Shown here in pieces: positions 22,380 to 37,256 of a stretch of DNA of 64,000 nucleotides (positions are counted from its first letter, which is position 1; each line of letters starts with the position of its first letter). The notes under the pieces were generated by a model, which was not told where the DNA came from, did no database searches, and saw only the letters and a program-made list of their open reading frames with translations. The stretch is taken from the IMG/VR virus record IMGVR_UViG_3300020055_000005, positions 1 through 64,000 of that record. One strand, 5' to 3'. The translations under genes were made by a program, and so were the position numbers. The stretch comes from a virus.

Positions 22380-23081
22380 TTAGAAGATTGGGTTCCCCTC
22401 TGAGTCTATTTCAAATAGAAATTCATCAGGGTCGTGGTCAAAATTACTACAATTACTTCCATCAGGATGATGGTATTTTACTTCCATATTAAATGAGATA
22501 CTATAACGATCTTTGTTACTCATGTTAGGTTCAACCATGTGCATCAAACCACTTGGGAACAGAATTAACCTTCCACTTCTTGGTTCGATATTATGACTCA
22601 TTCTAAACCTAGGTGAATTAGGATGGTCAGAAACCACCTTTGTGTCTTTATCTATTAATGAAATGCATCCTTCATCACCCTCTGCATGAACGTAAAATAC
22701 ACCACTATACCAACAACCATTATGTAAGTGTGGAGCATTCCATGCAGAAAAATCGTTAATATTAGCCCATGAGTTACCTATATTTACTGTACACTTAGTT
22801 TGGTCTATACGATGAAACGGTAAAACCTCATCTTTAAATTGTTGTTCTATCTTTCTCATCAATTGACTAAGTGCAGGATTTGATTCACAACCATCTACTG
22901 ATTGCCATCCTGTATATTGGTTAGATACTTGTCTACCAGCAGGGTCTCTCTTTCTCATACCATCCATTGCATCTCTGCACATTTTAAGATAGTCTTCAGT
23001 GACACCTCTACGTTGATCTAGTTCAGGGTCTAATAAATCCTTCTCAAATACAAAGTTTGGAAATAATAATCTAACTGCCAT
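22380..23081 (-). CDS. Putative 2OG-Fe(II) oxygenase (HxH type, TIGR02466-like)
   Basis: WANIN...HLH...SGVFY...LFPS.L.HMVEPN...RYSISFN. Confidence 0.85.
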   Translation of the reverse strand: MAVRLLFPNFVFEKDLLDPELDQRRGVTEDYLKMCRDAMDGMRKRDPAGRQVSNQYTGWQSVDGCESNPALSQLMRKIEQQFKDEVLPFHRIDQTKCTVNIGNSWANINDFSAWNAPHLHNGCWYSGVFYVHAEGDEGCISLIDKDTKVVSDHPNSPRFRMSHNIEPRSGRLILFPSGLMHMVEPNMSNKDRYSISFNMEVKYHHPDGSNCSNFDHDPDEFLFEIDSEGNPIF

Positions 23082-23964
23082 TATCTAAATCTAACTCCAA
23101 TTGATTTTCTGTTTCTTCACTTACAACTTTATGAAAAGGACATTCAGGTGGTGGTGATTCTTCTTTATAAAACTTACCCTTCGGTTGCCAGTATTCACCT
23201 TTTCTATATGCACCCATTTGTAATGATACATTTCTTTCTTCATCACTCAACCCCTTATGTCGACCCCACTCATCCATAGATTTTGCATATTTACCATCTA
23301 AGTGAGTTGTCACACTAGAACGATTCTCTTGAAATGTTTGATGGTCGAACTGCATGTACGATGCATTCCATTCTTCTCTTTTGAAAGGTACAACCTGACA
23401 TAGTGGTGTACCTTCCTTAATGGTAAATGATTTCTGTACCTTTGGATAAAATATGATTTGTGCATTATCCATGTTACTGTTAAATGTATCAGTATCAATA
23501 ATTCCTTGCCATGTTGCAAAGTATTGATTCTGAAATAAGAAGGGGTCTAAGTAGAAACATGAATAGCCTGGAGGTGTAACAATGTTCCAAGGGTTTCTCA
23601 TTTTGAATGCATCATTGACAGGGCCATGAGTACCCATGTATTCAAATGCATTTCCCATTTGTGTATGATTATGTGAAGGTGATGCATAACCATCGTTCTT
23701 ATCTTTAGTATAGAACTCTGTTGAATCGGAATCTGTTCCTACACCACAGTTAACTTCCATATCTCTATTTGCAACGAGATACCATCCCATCTTTAACCAG
23801 TCATCCATTGCAGGACAGGCACGTACTGTTGTTATACGTTTTCCATGTACATCCATACCAACCTTGAGGGTTTTCCACCACTCAGGTTGAACCGTTTTCG
23901 CAAGAACTGGTCTAAAGTTCTTAACCGTGTCCGTATCGTATGAATGGAATTCTATCGTCGGCAC
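23071..23964 (-). CDS. Conserved oxygenase-cluster protein (DUF6065-like)
   Basis: CPAMDDW, NPW.I.TPPGYSC, GIIDTD and GTPL.QV.PFKR pattern. Confidence 0.6.
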   Translation of the reverse strand: MPTIEFHSYDTDTVKNFRPVLAKTVQPEWWKTLKVGMDVHGKRITTVRACPAMDDWLKMGWYLVANRDMEVNCGVGTDSDSTEFYTKDKNDGYASPSHNHTQMGNAFEYMGTHGPVNDAFKMRNPWNIVTPPGYSCFYLDPFLFQNQYFATWQGIIDTDTFNSNMDNAQIIFYPKVQKSFTIKEGTPLCQVVPFKREEWNASYMQFDHQTFQENRSSVTTHLDGKYAKSMDEWGRHKGLSDEERNVSLQMGAYRKGEYWQPKGKFYKEESPPPECPFHKVVSEETENQLELDLDNGS

Positions 23965-24664
23965 TGTACTTCGTCCTCCTGTCTGTTAATTTAACCTCGT
24001 CTCCTCTGATTACTATGGAACGTCTATCCATGTATCTTGCACTTTCATTTGGTGCATCTGCACCATGAGGTATTCTACCATCAAATAAAACTAAACGATT
24101 TGGTACAAATTCCACTTCTGCAATTTGATGGTTTTTAATATGTTCGTTTCTTCCTTGAAGACCCTGTTGTGGTGAATCATAAATTCTTAATGTACCACCC
24201 CATTTAGGGTTCCAAAATCTGTTATAATAATATAAAAAAGATAAGTTCCAATCATCATGATCATCACAATCTGAGTGTGTAGTTCCATGACATCCATGTG
24301 TTTGAGAATTTAAACCTGCATACTGAAATCTAACCCACTCAAATTCAAAATCTGTTTGAAGTTTTCTATTAAACCAAATCGGAACGACTGCATCTAAACG
24401 ATCAATATCTCCTTCAAGATTGTCCCCACGAAGAAAACTTGCACCCCAAAAAGAATGCATGGGTAATCCTGTAGGATTGTCTCCACCGACTTGATTGGTT
24501 TTAGACCAAATTGATGTTCTAGTAAATAGGTTGTCTATGTGGTGATGAAGTTCATCACTTAAATAATTATCTATTACATAAACTTTATCTAAAGGCAACT
24601 CGCAAATTTTAAAAGGTTCGTCTAAGTAGACGACCTCTAATTGATCATCATCCTGTTTGACCAT
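23921..24664 (-). CDS. 2OG-Fe(II) oxygenase (prolyl-hydroxylase-like)
   Basis: HSD...W...WGG...PNRLVLFDGRIPH...RRS. Start placed at MVKQ (24664). Confidence 0.85.
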   Translation of the reverse strand: MVKQDDDQLEVVYLDEPFKICELPLDKVYVIDNYLSDELHHHIDNLFTRTSIWSKTNQVGGDNPTGLPMHSFWGASFLRGDNLEGDIDRLDAVVPIWFNRKLQTDFEFEWVRFQYAGLNSQTHGCHGTTHSDCDDHDDWNLSFLYYYNRFWNPKWGGTLRIYDSPQQGLQGRNEHIKNHQIAEVEFVPNRLVLFDGRIPHGADAPNESARYMDRRSIVIRGDEVKLTDRRTKYSADDRIPFIRYGHG

Positions 24665-25235
24665 TTCCCTGCGTTTCCATATAAGAGTCAGGAGCAAGTA
24701 ACGGTGTTGGTATAACAACACAGTAGTCATCTACTTCCTTTAAGAAATCCTCTCTAGTGTTATTAATTTCATCTTCGATTTGTACATAACAACACCACAC
24801 TGCATCAGCATATTCTGCAACTCTTCTGGCCGCTGACCTTCTAGGATGTGAAGACCCTTCTCTACCTGCAAAAACAACTTCAATCAAATCATCAAAACCG
24901 TATCTATGCACAACCTCTTTAATGAATTCATGACAAATATTATTGATTTCTTGTTTGTGTTGTTGATTTAAATTAAAACCGATAGGTGGTTCAGAGTTTT
25001 CAATGTATAGTTCAATCGCATCCTTTTCTTCATCTGTTAAGGGAAGTGCATCTTGTTTTTCAAAATCTACACCATCTTTCCATTTTACAATCTTAATTTC
25101 TAAGTCTGCGTACACTAACATTTCATAATCAAAACCCAAGTCAGGTGCATCGCAATTGTCAAAACTGTATCTCAAACCATTAGGTTTAGTGATTTGTAGA
25201 TTACCGTCTTCTGTAAATATTAATTCACTTTTCAT
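24648..25235 (-). CDS. Probable tail-fibre assembly/chaperone-like protein (DUF4376-like C-terminus)
   Basis: RYGFDD...AEYADAVW pattern resembling phage fibre-associated proteins. Confidence 0.45.
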   Translation of the reverse strand: MKSELIFTEDGNLQITKPNGLRYSFDNCDAPDLGFDYEMLVYADLEIKIVKWKDGVDFEKQDALPLTDEEKDAIELYIENSEPPIGFNLNQQHKQEINNICHEFIKEVVHRYGFDDLIEVVFAGREGSSHPRRSAARRVAEYADAVWCCYVQIEDEINNTREDFLKEVDDYCVVIPTPLLAPDSYMETQGNGQTG

Positions 25236-25255
25236 TTATTAAATACCTCTTTCAT

Positions 25256-25284
25256 ATTATAACCTGTCATTGACTTTTTGTCAA
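25256..25284 (-). promoter_or_regulatory. Perfect sigma70 promoter TTGACA-17-TATAAT driving the oxygenase cluster
   Basis: Minus strand TTGACA AAAAGTCAATGACAGGT TATAAT, followed by AGAGG RBS and the ATG at 25235. Confidence 0.85.
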
Positions 25285-26849
25285 GCAAGTACTCTCCATT
25301 TTTTATAGATGTCTAAATTATTTATGTGGTCACAATCCATACCTTCTACCCAAGGGCCTCCCCTAGTATAATGGATACCACTGAAATCCCACTTAACATC
25401 AGGGTCATCATATCCTTCTACAAATATGTATTTCTCAGGAATCTTACTGATCTTATCAGTCCATTCAAACTGATGGAGTTGTTTACCTGTCCAAGTGTTC
25501 ACTGTTTCAGGTGTAAGTTTTTTACAATCTTCATGACCATTATTAAATATCATCATACTAGACCATAATTTTTTTGGATAGTCTATGTTCACTTCTCCGT
25601 TAAACTTAGTTTCATCATGTTTATATTGAGGATACTGAATACATGCAACTGCATCATCAGGATGTAGATAATAGAACATAGGTAATAAAGTTTTTTCAAA
25701 AATAAAATCATCATCTATGAAAATACTAAAACCCTCGTAATTTTCTAAGTAAGGAATTAAAAACCTACTGTATGTAAACTCTGTTGATTGATTTGCATAC
25801 TCTCTAGTATATTCAGGTATCTTTGATACATCTAATAGTTTTATTTCAGGTTCGTATCTTATTTCATTAATTAAATGTCCTGCACCTGTATCTTTAAAAA
25901 TACTTTGTTCAATAGAAATTTTAGATACTTCTGCGAGGTTACCATGTCTACTATCGTAACCAATGTAAATGTTTAATGGTTTACCTTTACTTAAACTATG
26001 AACCTTTTTATTCCAATTGTAAATTTTTGGTCTGAACTCTTGCACATTCATCAGGTTACTGTTATATTCTAATGCACCCTGTATCAGTGTGAATGACACA
26101 TTATAGTGTCCACCCATACCCATTCTTTGTCCAAGGTCTTCTCGTAGACTTAATTTGGTTTTCCAATACTCCATGAAATCTTCGAATCCAATGGGTTCTT
26201 GATCGATGGTGTCGTATGCATCTGTAATACACAATTCCATATCAGGGTCACCCATCTCTTCAAAACAACCTGAACGTATAGAGCCTGGATGAATTCTTAG
26301 TTGATATCTACTATCTTTAACTAATTCTATTACTTGTCCTTGTATAGGTGCCCAAAGACCATCTTCTTGTATACTGTGTATTAACCAATGTGCCTTTGCA
26401 CTATGGTAATACATTGAGTTTAAAGATTCTAAATCTCGTTTGGATAATGCATATTCTTGTTCATTGACATGATCTCTTAAATCAATATACTCACCATTTG
26501 TATCGACTGTATCCATACCTGCAATTTGATTTTCATGATTGGGACGAGGTTTTTCAGTCCATCCTACTGGTAAGAATTTATGATAACATGGTGATTCGTT
26601 TTTTAGTCCATTGAACAAAGACCACTTTTCTCTTTTTCGTTCTTTCTCAAAATCTCCCCATTTAAAAATTTTTATAGGGGGTATAATTTCTTCAAAAACA
26701 TATTTAAGAATTGCGTATGTTTCTTTATCCTTGTATTCTTGATCTAATTGAAGTGACCCAAAATGATAATAGGTATCTTTCCAGTCAGTTTTACCTGCTA
26801 GTTCTTCTTTTGCTTGGGATACGGATTCTATTTTAATAAAATTACTCAT
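25281..26849 (-). CDS. Fusion: N-terminal ParB/Srx-like domain plus C-terminal GT-A glycosyltransferase (GT8/CDI-like)
   Basis: C-terminal IYIGYD, STEFTYSRFL.P, DDD, WSS.M.FN, LHQFEW and HYT.GGPW motifs. N-terminal LIHSIQEDGLWAPI...HPGSIR. Confidence 0.8.
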   Translation of the reverse strand: MSNFIKIESVSQAKEELAGKTDWKDTYYHFGSLQLDQEYKDKETYAILKYVFEEIIPPIKIFKWGDFEKERKREKWSLFNGLKNESPCYHKFLPVGWTEKPRPNHENQIAGMDTVDTNGEYIDLRDHVNEQEYALSKRDLESLNSMYYHSAKAHWLIHSIQEDGLWAPIQGQVIELVKDSRYQLRIHPGSIRSGCFEEMGDPDMELCITDAYDTIDQEPIGFEDFMEYWKTKLSLREDLGQRMGMGGHYNVSFTLIQGALEYNSNLMNVQEFRPKIYNWNKKVHSLSKGKPLNIYIGYDSRHGNLAEVSKISIEQSIFKDTGAGHLINEIRYEPEIKLLDVSKIPEYTREYANQSTEFTYSRFLIPYLENYEGFSIFIDDDFIFEKTLLPMFYYLHPDDAVACIQYPQYKHDETKFNGEVNIDYPKKLWSSMMIFNNGHEDCKKLTPETVNTWTGKQLHQFEWTDKISKIPEKYIFVEGYDDPDVKWDFSGIHYTRGGPWVEGMDCDHINNLDIYKKWRVLA

Positions 26850-26881: not shown

Positions 26882-27583
26882 CTATGTAATCGGTGTTGCT
26901 GGCCACTGTTGTGACAATACACCATCCCATCTTGCGACAGGAGTTCTACCTTGTCTAGCATACGTTGCAGGTTGTCTGTTCTGATATGTGAAAGGTGTTT
27001 GACCTTGTCTCGCATACGTACTAGGTTGTCTGTTTTGATATGTGAACGGTGTCTGCGAGTTCGAAGGATTTCTATATGTAAACGGCGACCTGTGATTATA
27101 TGTAGAAGGTTGTCTTGCGTTTGCAATATAAGGATACGGTTGTTGTGCATCCCTAATGTTAGGTTCCTGTGCATTCTTAATAGTAGGTTGTTGTCCATTT
27201 CTAATGTTAGGTTCTTGTGCATTCCTAATATTAGGTTCTTGTGCATTTACTGGATTTCTATATGTAAATGGTGACCTATAGTTATATGTAAACGGTTGTC
27301 TTGCATTTGCACGATATGGAACCCTATATGTAAATGGCACTCTATATGTAAAAGGTTGTCTCGCATTCGCAATATAAGGAACACGATATGTGAAAGGTGA
27401 CTGATAAGTCACAGGTTGTTGTGCGTTAGCAGGGTACCTTGCACTGTATGTGAAAGGAGACTGATAAGTTACAGGCTGTTGAGCATTCGCAGGATATCTT
27501 GCGTTGTAAGTAAACGGTGCTTGGCTGTTGACCGTGGCACGAGCCTGACCTTGCATCGATTGTCTGTGGAAACCTGTTGCCAT
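26882..27583 (-). CDS. Pro/Tyr/Gln repeat protein, zipper partner A2 (233 aa)
   Basis: 26 Pro-delimited units of 6/8/10 aa (aa 24-215); GAGAGG RBS. Confidence 0.85.
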   Translation of the reverse strand: MATGFHRQSMQGQARATVNSQAPFTYNARYPANAQQPVTYQSPFTYSARYPANAQQPVTYQSPFTYRVPYIANARQPFTYRVPFTYRVPYRANARQPFTYNYRSPFTYRNPVNAQEPNIRNAQEPNIRNGQQPTIKNAQEPNIRDAQQPYPYIANARQPSTYNHRSPFTYRNPSNSQTPFTYQNRQPSTYARQGQTPFTYQNRQPATYARQGRTPVARWDGVLSQQWPATPIT

Positions 27584-27601
27584 CTTACTTAATTCCTCTC
27601 A

Positions 27602-28906
27602 TTATTTCGTACTAATATTATGAACCATTAAACTATTTGCAAAGAAGTTATGATGTGGACTGTCTACACCAAAGTGATAAACCATCTCTTCATCTGCTTC
27701 TTCTATAGATTCAATAATTGACTCTGATAAATTTTGTTTTAAAATTGCATTGTTGATGTCTTTAATTGCATCACCGATCTGCAATTCTCCGTTGACTTCT
27801 TTCATGTCATCGGCATGTCCTAATTCTACTTCTTTATTCCAATCTTCTAAATTAATAACCTTCCATCCCTGATCTTCAACATAGAATGGATGACCACCTG
27901 TTACTTTTAACCACCCACCGTCTGTAAGTTGTAGTTTATAAACTTTACACTCTCTTGGTTCCATGACATTTGATACACTTACTCTTTCCAGTTCGTTACT
28001 TTCTAGATTAAGTGAATACACCACATCACCCACTTGGATGTTTTCTATAGGTGTCATTGAAGTGTCACCCATCCAAACTTGTGTTCCAGCAGCGAAACAT
28101 CCTCCTCCACCGTAGAAGTAAACTGCTAAGAAACGGAAAGGATATGTATACGGTTGTTGCGAAGAACTAGGTTGTCTTGCGTTTGCAATATAAGGCACCC
28201 TATATGTAAACGGTGATCTAAATGCAACTGGTTGTCTTGCGTTAGCAATATAAGGTACTCGATATGTGAAAGGAGACCTAAATGCAACTGGTTGTCTTGC
28301 GTTTGCAGGATATCTAGCATTATACGTAAATGGTGTTTGACCGTTTGCAGGATATCTAGCATTTGCAGGATATCTAGCATCATACGTAAATGGTGTTTGT
28401 CCGTTTCTTATATTAGGTTGTTGTGCATTTACAGGGTTTCTATATGTAAATGGAGACCTATGGTTATAGGTAAACGGTGATCTGTGTTGATACGTAAATG
28501 GTGACCTATGTTGATATGTAAATGGTGACCTATGTTGATACGTAAATGGTGATCGACCTGTTGCCTGATACGTGAAAGGTGTTTGTGCGTTCCTTATATT
28601 AGGTTCTTGTGCATTTACTGGATTCTGATATTCTGCAGGTTGTCTTGCGTTTGCAATGTAAGGTGTTTGTGCGTTTGCAATGTAAGGATAAGGTTGTTGT
28701 GCGTTAGCAATATAAGGCGTCTGACTGTTTGCAATGTAAGGATAAGGATTTTGAGTTGCTTCTTGACCTGATGCATTATTCCACCCTGTAGGTGTCTTAA
28801 TATAAATCTGATCAACTGCTTTCCATGCTGTGGGAGTCTTTACCCATGCACCCCTAGTTGCATTCCAACCTGTAGGTGTTTTTACGCTTTGATTACCTGA
28901 TGCCAT
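27602..28906 (-). CDS. Pro/Tyr/Gln repeat protein A1 with three N-terminal KTPT-W repeats and a C-terminal Hint (intein-like) domain
   Basis: Repeats at aa 55-246, then GGGG|CFAAGT...TGGHPFY...VYHF...HNFFANSLMVHN-ISTK. Confidence 0.9.
   Translation of the reverse strand: MASGNQSVKTPTGWNATRGAWVKTPTAWKAVDQIYIKTPTGWNNASGQEATQNPYPYIANSQTPYIANAQQPYPYIANAQTPYIANARQPAEYQNPVNAQEPNIRNAQTPFTYQATGRSPFTYQHRSPFTYQHRSPFTYQHRSPFTYNHRSPFTYRNPVNAQQPNIRNGQTPFTYDARYPANARYPANGQTPFTYNARYPANARQPVAFRSPFTYRVPYIANARQPVAFRSPFTYRVPYIANARQPSSSQQPYTYPFRFLAVYFYGGGGCFAAGTQVWMGDTSMTPIENIQVGDVVYSLNLESNELERVSVSNVMEPRECKVYKLQLTDGGWLKVTGGHPFYVEDQGWKVINLEDWNKEVELGHADDMKEVNGELQIGDAIKDINNAILKQNLSESIIESIEEADEEMVYHFGVDSPHHNFFANSLMVHNISTK
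27617..28099 (-). other. Hint/BIL autoprocessing domain (aa 270-430), no homing endonuclease
   Basis: Cys1, block-B TxxHP, terminal His-Asn; the +1 residue is Ile. Confidence 0.9.
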
Positions 28907-35377: not shown

Positions 35378-36094
35378 TTATACCTGAGTGTTACTTGGGT
35401 TCTTAGAGAACCTTGCAGTTGGTACAGATTGATGTATTTTTTCTACAGTACCTGTTTTATTTACGTACACTTCACTTAATTTTCTAAGTGTACCATTATC
35501 ATTTACATATACTCCTTTCACTTTTGCAATCGGGCCTACAGTTCTAGTAGTTGAATATGGTGCTTGATATGTAAATGGTGACCTCACCGTGTAAGGGAAC
35601 TGATAGGTTACTTGATATATAAACGGTGATTGTGCATTCGCAATATATGGTGATTGTGCATTTGCAGTGACCCTATATGTTGACGGTGATCTATGTTGAT
35701 ACGTAAACGGATTCCTTGCGTTTGCAGGATTGGGTTGTTGTGCATTCCTAATATTAGGTTCTTGTGCATTTGCAATATAAGGACTTGGATTTTGTGCCTG
35801 ATATGTATTAGGTTGTCTTGCGTTTCCAGTCGCTCTATAAATTAAAGGTTGTCTTGCATTTCTAATATTAGGTTCTTGTGCAGATGTAGGGTTTCTATAT
35901 GTAAACGGAGACCTATGGTTATAGGTGAAAGGACTCTGTTTAGTTGCACGATATGTAAATGGTGACCTTGCAATATACGGATAAGGTGTTTGACCAATAA
36001 GAGGTTGTCTTGCCTGATAAGTCGTTTGACCTTGCGCTTGATAAGTTGTAGGTTGTTGTGCAATATATGGTATTTGATAGTATCCTGTTGCCAT
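35378..36094 (-). CDS. Pro/Tyr/Gln repeat protein, zipper partner B2 (238 aa)
   Basis: MATG start; even-spaced Pro units; C-terminal VYVN..G repeats. Confidence 0.85.
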   Translation of the reverse strand: MATGYYQIPYIAQQPTTYQAQGQTTYQARQPLIGQTPYPYIARSPFTYRATKQSPFTYNHRSPFTYRNPTSAQEPNIRNARQPLIYRATGNARQPNTYQAQNPSPYIANAQEPNIRNAQQPNPANARNPFTYQHRSPSTYRVTANAQSPYIANAQSPFIYQVTYQFPYTVRSPFTYQAPYSTTRTVGPIAKVKGVYVNDNGTLRKLSEVYVNKTGTVEKIHQSVPTARFSKNPSNTQV

Positions 36095-36095
36095 T

Positions 36096-37256
36096 TTATA
36101 TTCCTAATGCCTGTCCATAAGTTGCGTTTAATGATATCATACCATGACTATATGTTGATGTATATACATTATTACTTGAATCCACACCCTTAACTGTGAA
36201 ACTAACACCTTGTGCTTGTGTCCATGTAGTACCATTAGGGTTTGGGCCGTTTGGTGTTACACATGCCTTCCACAGGAATTGTCTTGCACCACTAGTTGGA
36301 ACACTATAGTAAGTACCTGAACTATATCCAGCGTTAGTTGGTAATGGCCCTGAACTATAAGAGTAACAATAACTTGAACTACAGTCTTTACCACTACATG
36401 CTTGACTTGATACATCATATTTTACTGTAAATGTGGAACTGGTTGTCAATAGACCTTGATATAAAATGTAATCAGAATAAACAGTCGCCTGATATTGATT
36501 TGTATAACCAAACCACAATGCCTTAATAGAACTTTGGGCAGTTGCATTTGAGAACTCCATTGAACACCCTACCTCAGGTGGAGGGTTTGTGGATGCTCTT
36601 GATTGCGTAGTATACCAGTACCCAGCTGAACCAGTACCAGGCCCCCAAACTTGTTCTAGTGGGTCATAGATATATGCAGCTGGTTGTCTTGCATTATAAG
36701 ACGATCTTGCGTTTGCAATGTATGGATAAGGTGTTCTTCCTATAAATGGAGACTGATATGAATATGGTGTTTGACCAATTGTAGGCACTGGTTGTTGTGC
36801 GTTACTAGGTGATTGATATGACTGTTGTGCATTTCTAATCACTGGTTGTTGTGCATTTGTAGGATTTCTATATGTAAACGGTGACCTATAGTTGTACGTA
36901 AACGGTGATTGTTTATTTGCTGGTACCTGATATGTAAATGGTGTCTGCGAATTTGCAATATAAGGATTCGCTTGTTGTGCCGAATATGTAAATGGTGATC
37001 TGTGTTGATAAGTAAACGGAGACCTAACAGTGTAATTGAAAGGTTGTTGTGCGTTTCTTATAAACGGAGATTGTTGAACAGCAGGTGTCCTATATGTTAC
37101 AGGTTGTCTGTTGTTGTATGTTAGGGGTTGTCTTGCCTGTGCAGGTGTTCTACCAGTTGCCTGTTTGGTTTCAGGTGATTGTGCGTTAACTACTGCTTGC
37201 CCTTGATAGGGTTGTTGGAAAGTCGTCCCTGTGTTTATATAGATTTCATCAGCCAT
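36096..37256 (-). CDS. Pro/Tyr/Gln repeat protein B1 with C-terminal Cys-containing globular domain
   Basis: Repeats at aa 17-199; non-repetitive S/T/Y/G-rich domain at aa 200-386. Confidence 0.85.
   Translation of the reverse strand: MADEIYINTGTTFQQPYQGQAVVNAQSPETKQATGRTPAQARQPLTYNNRQPVTYRTPAVQQSPFIRNAQQPFNYTVRSPFTYQHRSPFTYSAQQANPYIANSQTPFTYQVPANKQSPFTYNYRSPFTYRNPTNAQQPVIRNAQQSYQSPSNAQQPVPTIGQTPYSYQSPFIGRTPYPYIANARSSYNARQPAAYIYDPLEQVWGPGTGSAGYWYTTQSRASTNPPPEVGCSMEFSNATAQSSIKALWFGYTNQYQATVYSDYILYQGLLTTSSTFTVKYDVSSQACSGKDCSSSYCYSYSSGPLPTNAGYSSGTYYSVPTSGARQFLWKACVTPNGPNPNGTTWTQAQGVSFTVKGVDSSNNVYTSTYSHGMISLNATYGQALGI

What the first reader, a model, noticed from the sequence alone, without database searches (positions are those of the whole stretch)
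27578..28140. Non-splicing Hint domain positioned to ligate the two zipper chains into one hairpin
SEEN: A1 ends its zipper with ...YTYPFRFLAVYFYGGGG|C270 followed by a minimal Hint domain (Cys1, TxxH, terminal HN), then only ISTK. The +1 residue is Ile, so there is no Cys/Ser/Thr nucleophile for cis-splicing. Extending i+j=269 past the repeats still gives Y253-A16, Y255-A14, F257-G12 and Y265-G4, and puts A2's Ala2 opposite Gly267. KNOWN: Hint domains form a thioester at the residue before Cys1 that outside nucleophiles can resolve (Hedgehog-cholesterol, BIL domains), and Met is normally removed before Ala. INFERENCE: zipping delivers the free alpha-amine of Ala2 (or the Thr3 hydroxyl) to the Gly269 thioester. 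This would join two gene products through a G268-G269 two-residue turn into one giant covalent beta-hairpin, i.e. template-directed protein trans-ligation. Alternatives are simple cleavage, or capture of another cargo or host nucleophile at the filament tip.
Basis: partly seen in the sequence, partly recalled or inferred. Interest (0 to 1): 0.92.

Follow-up and report, generated by a model that had tools for sequence, protein, structure and literature searches.

The report
Self-cutting Hint domain on phage zipper protein
A marine phage fibre-like protein ends in a genuine intein-like (Hint) self-cutting domain placed exactly where its partner protein's start lies, but comparison with relatives suggests it most likely cuts itself out using its own lysine-bearing tail rather than welding the two proteins together.

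Summary
A1 (27602-28906, minus strand, 434 aa) ends its proline-rich arm in GGGG, followed by a 161-residue Hint domain (Cys270, TGGH336-339, His429-Asn430) and the tail ISTK.

The Hint scores above Pfam's cut-off. It folds confidently, and its nearest structures are Tetrahymena BUBL BIL2 and the type-A BIL 2LWY.

The zipper premise is strongly supported:
- 27 of A2's 30 prolines face A1 prolines at i+j=269. Shuffles give 11.2±1.7, with a maximum of 20.
- The same mirror register holds in 71 distinct homologous pairs.
- Arm lengths covary with r≈0.998.
- A2's N-terminus therefore lies 0-12 residues from the scissile bond in 21 of 23 Hint-bearing pairs.

Ligation to A2 is not supported:
- The Hint is optional (23 of 71 pairs) and patchy on the tree.
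- His-Asn is invariant, and a tail of at least 4 residues always follows.
- Every tail contains a lysine (46 of 46).
- A2's N-terminus is the same with or without a Hint, and half of the Hint-bearing pairs have Pro2.
- No A1–GG–A2 fusions were found.

Best reading: a type-A BIL/BUBL-like self-excising module resolved in cis, by a tail amine or by water. Trans-ligation remains possible (about 0.12).

This scan had already noted C-terminal Hint domains with a conserved lysine on phage tail proteins in other DNA.

The parts
27602..28906 (-). A1 gene (434 aa): docking domain, proline-punctuated arm, poly-Gly, Hint, tail
   Evidence: ORF. Homologues at 96-40% identity in metagenomes.
28757..28906 (-). 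A1 N-terminal domain with three KTPTGW-like repeats (residues 1-50). A2's C-terminus aligns to residue 36.
   Evidence: Nearly invariant columns. k = lenA2+36 or +37 in 65 of 71 pairs.
28112..28801 (-). A1 arm (residues 36-265), mirror-matched to A2
   Evidence: 27 of 30 Pro coincidences at i+j=269 against 11.2±1.7 in shuffles.
28100..28111 (-). GGGG (G266-G269), the N-extein end. Gly-1 is invariant.
   Evidence: GGGG precedes Cys1 in 44 of 60 homologues.
27617..28099 (-). Hint domain C270-N430 (161 aa): Cys1, block B TGGH (27890-27901), terminal His-Asn
   Evidence: PF14890 above cut-off. 2LWY and BIL2 hits. pLDDT 91.
27605..27616 (-). C-flank tail ISTK (+1 Ile, terminal Lys434)
   Evidence: Tails are 4-29 aa and never shorter. 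Lys is present in 46 of 46 distinct tails.
27584..27601 (-). 18-nt spacer with a Shine-Dalgarno-like GAGAGGA, between the A1 stop and the A2 start
   Evidence: The last Lys codon, stop and spacer align with the Hint-less relative L006.
26882..27583 (-). A2 gene (233 aa): second arm, with a conserved C-terminal RWDG...QQWP motif

Best explanation
The A1 C-terminus carries a type-A-BIL/BUBL-like Hint module that removes itself after translation, without needing A2.

Shown:
- The domain is an intact Hint with Cys1, the block B Thr/His motif and a terminal His-Asn.
- It sits between an invariant Gly and a short tail that always holds a Lys.
- Orthologues without it end in the same poly-Gly plus a short tail.

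Inferred from the chemistry of the family:
1. Cys270 makes a Gly269 thioester by N-S acyl shift.
2. Asn430 cyclises and cuts off the ISTK tail.
3. The thioester is then resolved in cis. The acceptor is the freed alpha-amine of Ile431 (the type-A BIL route), the epsilon-amine of Lys434 (the BUBL BIL2 isopeptide route), or water.

The products would be an A1 arm ending in GGGG, with or without ISTK, like the Hint-less orthologues, plus a free Hint of about 18 kDa.

Why the phage keeps it is inference only. It may be a transient cap or timing device for the aromatic/poly-Gly distal end of the zipper, or a tolerated intein-like insertion.
For: - Hint identity and fold.
- C270, G269, H429 and N430 are invariant in 30 aligned sequences. 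C, G, H and N stay invariant in 40 sequences that include unrelated phage proteins.
- The +1 residue in 60 homologues is G 28, F 15, M 7, I 3, L 2 and Y 2, with one each of K, R and S.
- The tail is never shorter than 4 residues. Lys is in 46 of 46 distinct tails, and is the last or penultimate residue in 42. Only 12 of 26 Hint-less tails hold a Lys.
- The Hint is optional: 23 of 71 distinct pairs carry it. On the N-domain tree the label needs at least 9 changes, and at least 3 are forced by supported branches.
- The closest Hint-less relative, L006 (71% identical arm), keeps the poly-Gly, a terminal Lys, the stop and the spacer.
- The same Hint type, ending in HN followed by K, closes many unrelated phage proteins that have no zipper partner.
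- Literature: type-A BILs have His-Asn and no +1 nucleophile. They mostly cleave, and can splice through the free amine of the C-flank (PMC4031507, PMC7664689). BIL2 forms a Lys isopeptide (PMC8616854).
Against: - No biochemical data exist for this family, so cleavage itself is inferred.
- A 4-residue tail has no obvious function, which makes re-ligation look pointless.
- In both the A and B families the Hint always sits on the first-arm protein. This is exactly where single-chain relatives continue into the second arm, which also fits a chain-joining role.
- A2's N-terminus is sterically close to the scissile bond.
- Lys also occurs in 12 of 26 Hint-less tails, so part of the Lys signal may be ancestral.
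Confidence: 0.5

Rival explanations
1. First reader's model. Zipping of A1 with A2 brings the free alpha-amine of A2 residue 2 to the Gly269 thioester. Aminolysis then joins the two gene products into one covalent hairpin of about 500 residues.
For: - The mirror register is conserved in 71 pairs and puts A2 Met1 opposite the start of the poly-Gly, 0-12 residues from Cys1 in 21 of 23 Hint-bearing pairs.
- A2 residue 2 is always small (A, P, S or V), so Met removal is expected (known MetAP specificity).
- Single-chain hairpin forms exist in the B family.
- A Hint also sits at the same break point in B1 proteins.
- Amine attack on a Hint thioester has precedent (PMC4031507, PMC8616854).
Against: - The invariant His-Asn, the obligatory tail and its universal Lys are left unexplained.
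- A2 N-termini do not differ between Hint-bearing and Hint-less pairs. Residue 2 is Pro in 12 of 23 Hint-bearing pairs.
- The Hint is absent from 48 of 71 pairs.
- In L087/L088 the register puts A2's N-terminus 17 residues past Cys1.
- No A1-GG-A2 fusion turned up in 170 loci and 213 proteins.
- The same Hint type occurs on proteins with no partner.
Confidence: 0.12
2. BUBL-like conjugation in trans. The Gly269 thioester is passed to a Lys of another protein (another virion protein, another A1 tail, or a host surface molecule). This crosslinks or anchors the distal tip.
For: - The closest structure is BIL2 of the Tetrahymena BUBL locus. BIL2 conjugates a Gly-Gly C-terminus to lysines of several substrates without ATP (PMC8616854).
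- Gly-Gly before Cys1 is invariant or nearly so.
- Lys is conserved in the C-flank.
Against: - The arms are almost free of Lys: 1.7% of residues, and A2 has a single Lys far from its N-terminus.
- No candidate acceptor was identified.
- A thioester would not survive long in a free virion, which argues against capture of a host nucleophile.
Confidence: 0.12
3. The Hint is not processed. It stays on A1 as a distal payload, or as a decayed intein-like remnant with only a structural role.
For: The slot after the arm takes other payloads, such as globular domains in L013, L014, L025, L028 and L156.
Against: All catalytic positions are invariant across divergent homologues at 33-65% identity. That is not expected for a remnant.
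Confidence: 0.08

Closest known systems
Type-A bacterial intein-like (BIL) domains, e.g. Clostridium thermocellum BIL (PDB 2LWY)
   Same: - Cys1, the block B Thr/His motif and a C-terminal His-Asn.
- No nucleophilic +1 residue.
- Located in variable, non-essential proteins, with no homing endonuclease.
- 2LWY is the best PDB sequence hit, E 1.6e-9.
- Known to cleave, and to ligate through a free amine (PMC4031507).
   Different: - Here it is at the extreme C-terminus of a phage fibre-like protein.
- It is preceded by poly-Gly.
- It is followed by only 4-29 residues, which always include a Lys.
BIL2 of the Tetrahymena thermophila BUBL1 polyubiquitin-like locus (PDB 6Y75, 6TMM)
   Same: - Best structural match, TM 0.75/0.84.
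- Gly-Gly immediately before Cys1.
- A Lys in the C-flank.
- BIL2 makes a Lys isopeptide with the N-extein C-terminus (PMC8616854).
   Different: - The N-extein here is a proline-rich repeat arm, not a ubiquitin-like domain.
- The C-flank is a short peptide, not a domain.
- Sequence identity is only about 20%.
Class 1 mini-inteins (Ssp DnaB, gp41-1)
   Same: Same fold and the same blocks A, B, F and G.
   Different: - No Cys, Ser or Thr at +1 (1 of 60 homologues).
- Not inserted in a conserved site of an essential enzyme.
- Present or absent among close relatives, with no homing endonuclease.
Hedgehog C-terminal autoprocessing domain (HhC)
   Same: A Hint at the C-terminus that activates the preceding Gly as a thioester for an outside nucleophile (PMC7664689).
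   Different: - No sterol-recognition region, only a 4-residue tail.
- It has the intein-type His-Asn that Hedgehog lacks.
- The structural match is weaker, at rank 42-44.
Self-cleaving C-terminal intramolecular chaperone domains of phage tailspikes and fibres (Peptidase S74; from my own knowledge, not tested here)
   Same: A C-terminal module of a phage fibre protein that is released autocatalytically after assembly.
   Different: An unrelated fold and chemistry (a Ser-Lys dyad, no thioester). It cannot ligate.

Membership tests
Hint/intein superfamily | Match to a curated Hint/intein splicing model above its cut-off | tested here: met
   PF14890 scores 45.1 bits and 48.2 bits, against a cut-off of 35.8.
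Hint/intein superfamily | Horseshoe Hint fold | tested here: met
   AF2 model has pLDDT 91.2 and pTM 0.87. 60 PDB Hint/intein chains match at E<=0.001.
Class 1 intein | Cys, Ser or Thr at +1 of the C-extein | tested here: not met
   +1 is Ile here. Among 60 homologues the counts are G 28, F 15, M 7, I 3, L 2 and Y 2, with one each of K, R and S.
Class 1 intein | Cys1, block B TxxH and terminal His-Asn | tested here: met
   C270, TGGH336-339 and H429-N430. They are invariant.
Type-A BIL | His-Asn terminus combined with a non-nucleophilic +1 residue, in a variable non-conserved host protein | tested here: met
   The best PDB sequence hit is the type-A BIL 2LWY. Family definition taken from PMC4031507 and PMC7765530.
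Type-A BIL | Autocleavage or splicing activity | not testable with these tools
   Needs expression and mass spectrometry.
BUBL-type BIL (BIL2) | Gly-Gly before Cys1 and a Lys acceptor in the C-flank | tested here: met
   G268 and G269 are invariant or nearly so. Lys is in 46 of 46 tails. Whether the Lys is the acceptor cannot be tested here.
BUBL-type BIL (BIL2) | Ubiquitin-like domains flanking the Hint | tested here: not met
   The N-flank is a Pro-rich repeat arm and the C-flank is 4 residues.
Hedgehog HhC | Sterol-recognition region after the Hint | tested here: not met
   Only ISTK follows Asn430. PF01079 scores 19.8 bits, below its cut-off of 29.7.
PT-HINT (pretoxin Hint) | Followed by a C-terminal toxin domain, with a PF07591 match above cut-off | tested here: not met
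   PF07591 scores 17.3 bits against a cut-off of 27.7. No downstream domain is present.

The most novel reading that the evidence does not exclude
The Hint thioester at Gly269 is resolved by the N-terminal amine of the zipped partner A2. Two separately encoded arms would then be welded post-translationally into one covalent hairpin. This would recreate the single-chain topology seen in B-family relatives, and would be a natural, template-directed protein trans-ligation in virion assembly.
Probability: 0.12. Interest if true: 0.9.

Novelty: new variant of a known kind. Interest (0 to 1): 0.6.

Why it matters
If the thioester is passed to any protein amine, this would be an ATP-independent protein ligation step in phage morphogenesis. 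The amine could be the tail Lys, A2's N-terminus or another virion protein.

The module would also be a compact natural Gly-Gly ligation tool that needs no nucleophilic side chain.

Even the conservative reading has value. It adds a maturation step to a widespread, uncultured group of pelagimyophage-like ocean phages.

It also shows that the Hint sits at the distal tip of a two-gene, mirror-matched protein zipper. The comparative evidence for that zipper is unusually strong: 71 pairs, about 90% of prolines facing, and length covariation of r≈0.998.

Tried and rejected
- **Complex prediction.** Complex prediction on A1(1-272) plus A2 with alignments gave no verdict (score 0.00, partner pLDDT below 50). 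I do not use it either way.
- **Isolate phage genomes.** blastn and tblastn of the locus, A1, A2 and B1 found no match. The low-complexity filter may contribute to this.
- **A1-GG-A2 single-chain fusions.** None among 213 fetched proteins and 170 loci. Only B-type or hybrid single chains exist, and these have a non-repeat loop of 60 residues or more.
- **Stop-codon read-through joining A1 to A2.** The 18-nt spacer is in frame in the window. In homologues the spacers range from -1 to 65 nt and gene order can be reversed. Rejected.
- **Aromatic/small pairing code beyond the last matched proline.** It is not peaked at the claimed register.
- **Canonical intein, Hedgehog-type sterol transfer and pretoxin Hint readings.** Each fails a defining feature (see the membership test).
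- **ESM Atlas look-up of A2.** Scores were at most 0.81, which is noise level.
- **Primary papers.** Aranko 2013 and Dassa 2004 are not held. I cite reviews that describe them instead.

Full report
**Setting.** The window is the first 64 kb of a 151-kb IMG/VR virus record. It carries a T4-like structural module: major head protein, portal, sheath, terminase and baseplate wedge genes. The major capsid protein is 64-67% identical to those of Pelagibacter phages HTVC008M and Mosig and of Methylophilales phage Melnitz. The finding lies among fibre-like genes, upstream of a GT8-like gene and 2OG-Fe(II) oxygenase genes.

**Observation.** A1 (27602-28906, minus strand, 434 aa) has these parts:
- an N-terminal domain with three KTPTGW-like repeats;
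- a proline-punctuated repeat arm;
- an aromatic patch followed by GGGG;
- Cys270, then a 161-residue domain with TGGH at 336-339 and His429-Asn430;
- the tail ISTK.

The domain matches PF14890 above its curated cut-off. Its best solved relative by sequence is the type-A BIL of Clostridium thermocellum, 2LWY, at E 1.6e-9. An AF2 model from a 40-row alignment has pLDDT 91.2. Its best structural neighbours are BIL2 of the Tetrahymena BUBL1 locus (TM 0.75/0.84), then DnaB and gp41-1 mini-inteins and 2LWY. Hedgehog ranks much lower. The genome holds no other Hint domain.

**The zipper premise.** The ligation idea depends on A1 and A2 pairing antiparallel, so I tested that first.
- In the window, 27 of A2's 30 prolines face an A1 proline at i+j=269.
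- The best parallel register gives 16. Shuffling the order of A2's segments between prolines gives 11.2±1.7, with a maximum of 20 in 2000 shuffles.
- I collected homologous loci from ENA/JGI contigs and IMG/VR. This gave 71 distinct A1/A2 pairs.
- Each pair has one dominant antiparallel register that matches a median 90% of A2's prolines.
- In 65 of 71 pairs the register equals the A2 length plus 36 or 37. A2's conserved C-terminus therefore always lines up with A1 residue 36.
- The length of A1 before Cys1, or total A1 length in Hint-less forms, covaries with A2 length over 190-496 residues. r is 0.997 for 23 Hint pairs, and 0.998 for 28 Hint-less pairs after dropping three outliers.

Mirror order of repeat types cannot come from a DNA inversion. 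Matched changes in two genes therefore argue for a physical, in-register antiparallel pairing. A complex prediction gave no verdict.

**Geometry at the junction.** Cys1 follows the position facing A2 Met1 by 0-12 mostly Gly residues in 21 of 23 Hint-bearing pairs. L087 and L088 are the exceptions, at -17. It is equally conserved in Hint-less pairs, where A2 Met1 also faces the start of the poly-Gly. The aromatic/small "code" proposed for the last 20 residues is not peaked at the claimed offset.

**What the relatives say about the chemistry.**
1. *Active-site conservation.* Cys1, Gly-1, the block B His and the terminal His-Asn are invariant. This looks like an active enzyme, not a remnant.
2. 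*The +1 residue.* In 60 distinct Hint-bearing A1 proteins it is G 28, F 15, M 7, I 3, L 2 and Y 2, with one each of K, R and S. Canonical splicing is out.
3. *The tail.* A tail always follows Asn and is 4-29 residues long, never shorter. All 46 distinct tails contain Lys. In 42 of them it is the last or penultimate residue. By comparison, 12 of 26 Hint-less tails hold a Lys. The Fisher p of about 1e-9 was computed on partly overlapping counts and is not corrected for phylogeny, so it is only indicative.
4. *Hint is optional.* It is present in 23 of 71 pairs. 31 pairs have only poly-Gly plus a short tail, and 17 have a globular or other end. On an N-domain tree the Hint label needs at least 9 changes, and at least 3 are forced by well-supported branches.
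5. *The closest Hint-less relative.* L006 has a 71% identical arm. It keeps the poly-Gly, a terminal Lys codon, the stop and the 18-nt spacer, and these align with the window. The Hint therefore behaves as an insertion or deletion between the poly-Gly and the tail.
6. *A2's N-terminus.* It has the same motifs (MATG, MAIG, MPIG, MPQG and others) with or without a Hint. Residue 2 is Pro in 12 of 23 Hint-bearing pairs.
7. *Gene order.* It is A2 then A1 in 13 of 71 pairs, four of which carry a Hint.
8. *Wider distribution.* The same Hint type (CFxAGT ... LVHN, then K) ends many unrelated viral proteins. Some have poly-Gly before Cys1 and some carry two or three tandem copies. None has a zipper partner.

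**Known chemistry.** Type-A BILs have a His-Asn terminus and lack a +1 nucleophile. They give mostly cleavage products. They can also splice: Asn cyclisation frees the amine of the C-flank, which then attacks the N-terminal thioester (PMC4031507; also PMC7664689, PMC7765530). BIL2 of the BUBL locus joins the Gly-Gly C-terminus of a ubiquitin-like domain to a lysine epsilon-amine of the C-flank or of other proteins, without ATP (PMC8616854). The open question is which amine acts as the acceptor.

**Verdict on mechanism.** The invariant Asn, the obligatory tail and its universal Lys are what a cis resolution needs. Ligation to A2 does not need any of them. The optional, patchy Hint and the unchanged A2 N-terminus also argue against a dedicated A1-A2 ligation system.

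I therefore favour self-excision (confidence 0.5). The steps are a Gly269 thioester, Asn430 cyclisation, and then resolution by the tail's alpha- or epsilon-amine or by water. The product would be an A1 like those of the Hint-less orthologues.

Two points keep the trans model alive (0.12):
- A2's N-terminus really is next to the scissile bond.
- In both the A and B families the Hint sits on the first-arm protein, exactly where single-chain relatives continue into the second arm.

A BUBL-like transfer to another protein's Lys (0.12) and an unprocessed payload (0.08) remain as further rivals.

**Novelty.** The Hint class is known. New here are its placement at the tip of a mirror-matched two-gene zipper and the poly-Gly/Lys-tail context in ocean myophages. 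Earlier notes of this scan had already recorded C-terminal Hint domains with a conserved Lys on phage tail proteins in other DNA (e1-3282460), and BIL2 as the closest known relative of another phage Hint (e1-5392404). I found no paper describing these.

Noticed in passing
window 26882-28906 (A1/A2) and loci L001-L171: The two-gene 'mirror zipper' is strongly supported by comparison. In 71 distinct pairs, a median 90% of A2 prolines face A1 prolines at one antiparallel register. A2's C-terminus always aligns to A1 residue 36, and arm lengths covary with r≈0.998 over 190-496 residues.
   Followed up: yes
window 35378-37256 (pair B); P0069, P0076, P0084, P0108, P0112, P0151; L049:4890-6521: The paralogous B pair shows a weaker mirror register: 17 of 27 prolines at k=201. 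Single-chain proteins exist that start like B1 and end like B2, with a non-repeat loop domain between the arms. P0082 combines a B1-like N-terminus with an A2-type C-terminus.
   Followed up: partly
P0167, P0169, P0174, P0177, P0193 (L090:920-2791); P0105, P0160, P0163 (L091:2501-4246): Some B1-type first-arm proteins also end in a Hint, placed after a globular payload. One subtype ends in HN followed by a single Lys. Another lacks the terminal Asn (type-B-like) and begins with Cys-Cys. The second-arm gene follows directly.
   Followed up: partly
L045:3618-6356, L048, L065, L044:3594-5903: Unrelated viral proteins of about 770-910 aa end in two or three tandem Hint domains. Each starts 0-4 residues after the previous His-Asn, and the last is followed by a single Lys.
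   Followed up: partly
L086:2251-3162 (P0066): This 303-aa ORF starts exactly like the window's A2 (first 40 residues identical). It continues into the poly-Gly and Hint of an L087-type A1. It is either a recombinant across shared repeats or an assembly chimera.
   Followed up: partly
L009, L087, L098-L113, L122-L126: Gene order is reversed (A2 before A1) in 13 of 71 pairs, including four Hint-bearing pairs.
   Followed up: partly
window 22380-26849; L001-L004, L086, L087: There is conserved synteny downstream of the pair: a protein of about 520 aa with a weak GT8-like region, then two 2OG-Fe(II) oxygenase genes (prolyl-hydroxylase-like Pfam families), then gp13. This suggests hydroxylation and glycosylation of the Pro-rich arms.
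   Followed up: no
L002:7314-8031: In one 151-kb relative the A2 frame is broken: a 177-aa ORF with a frame change near its end. Two near-identical contigs have an intact 232-aa A2. This is probably an assembly error in the repeats.
   Followed up: no
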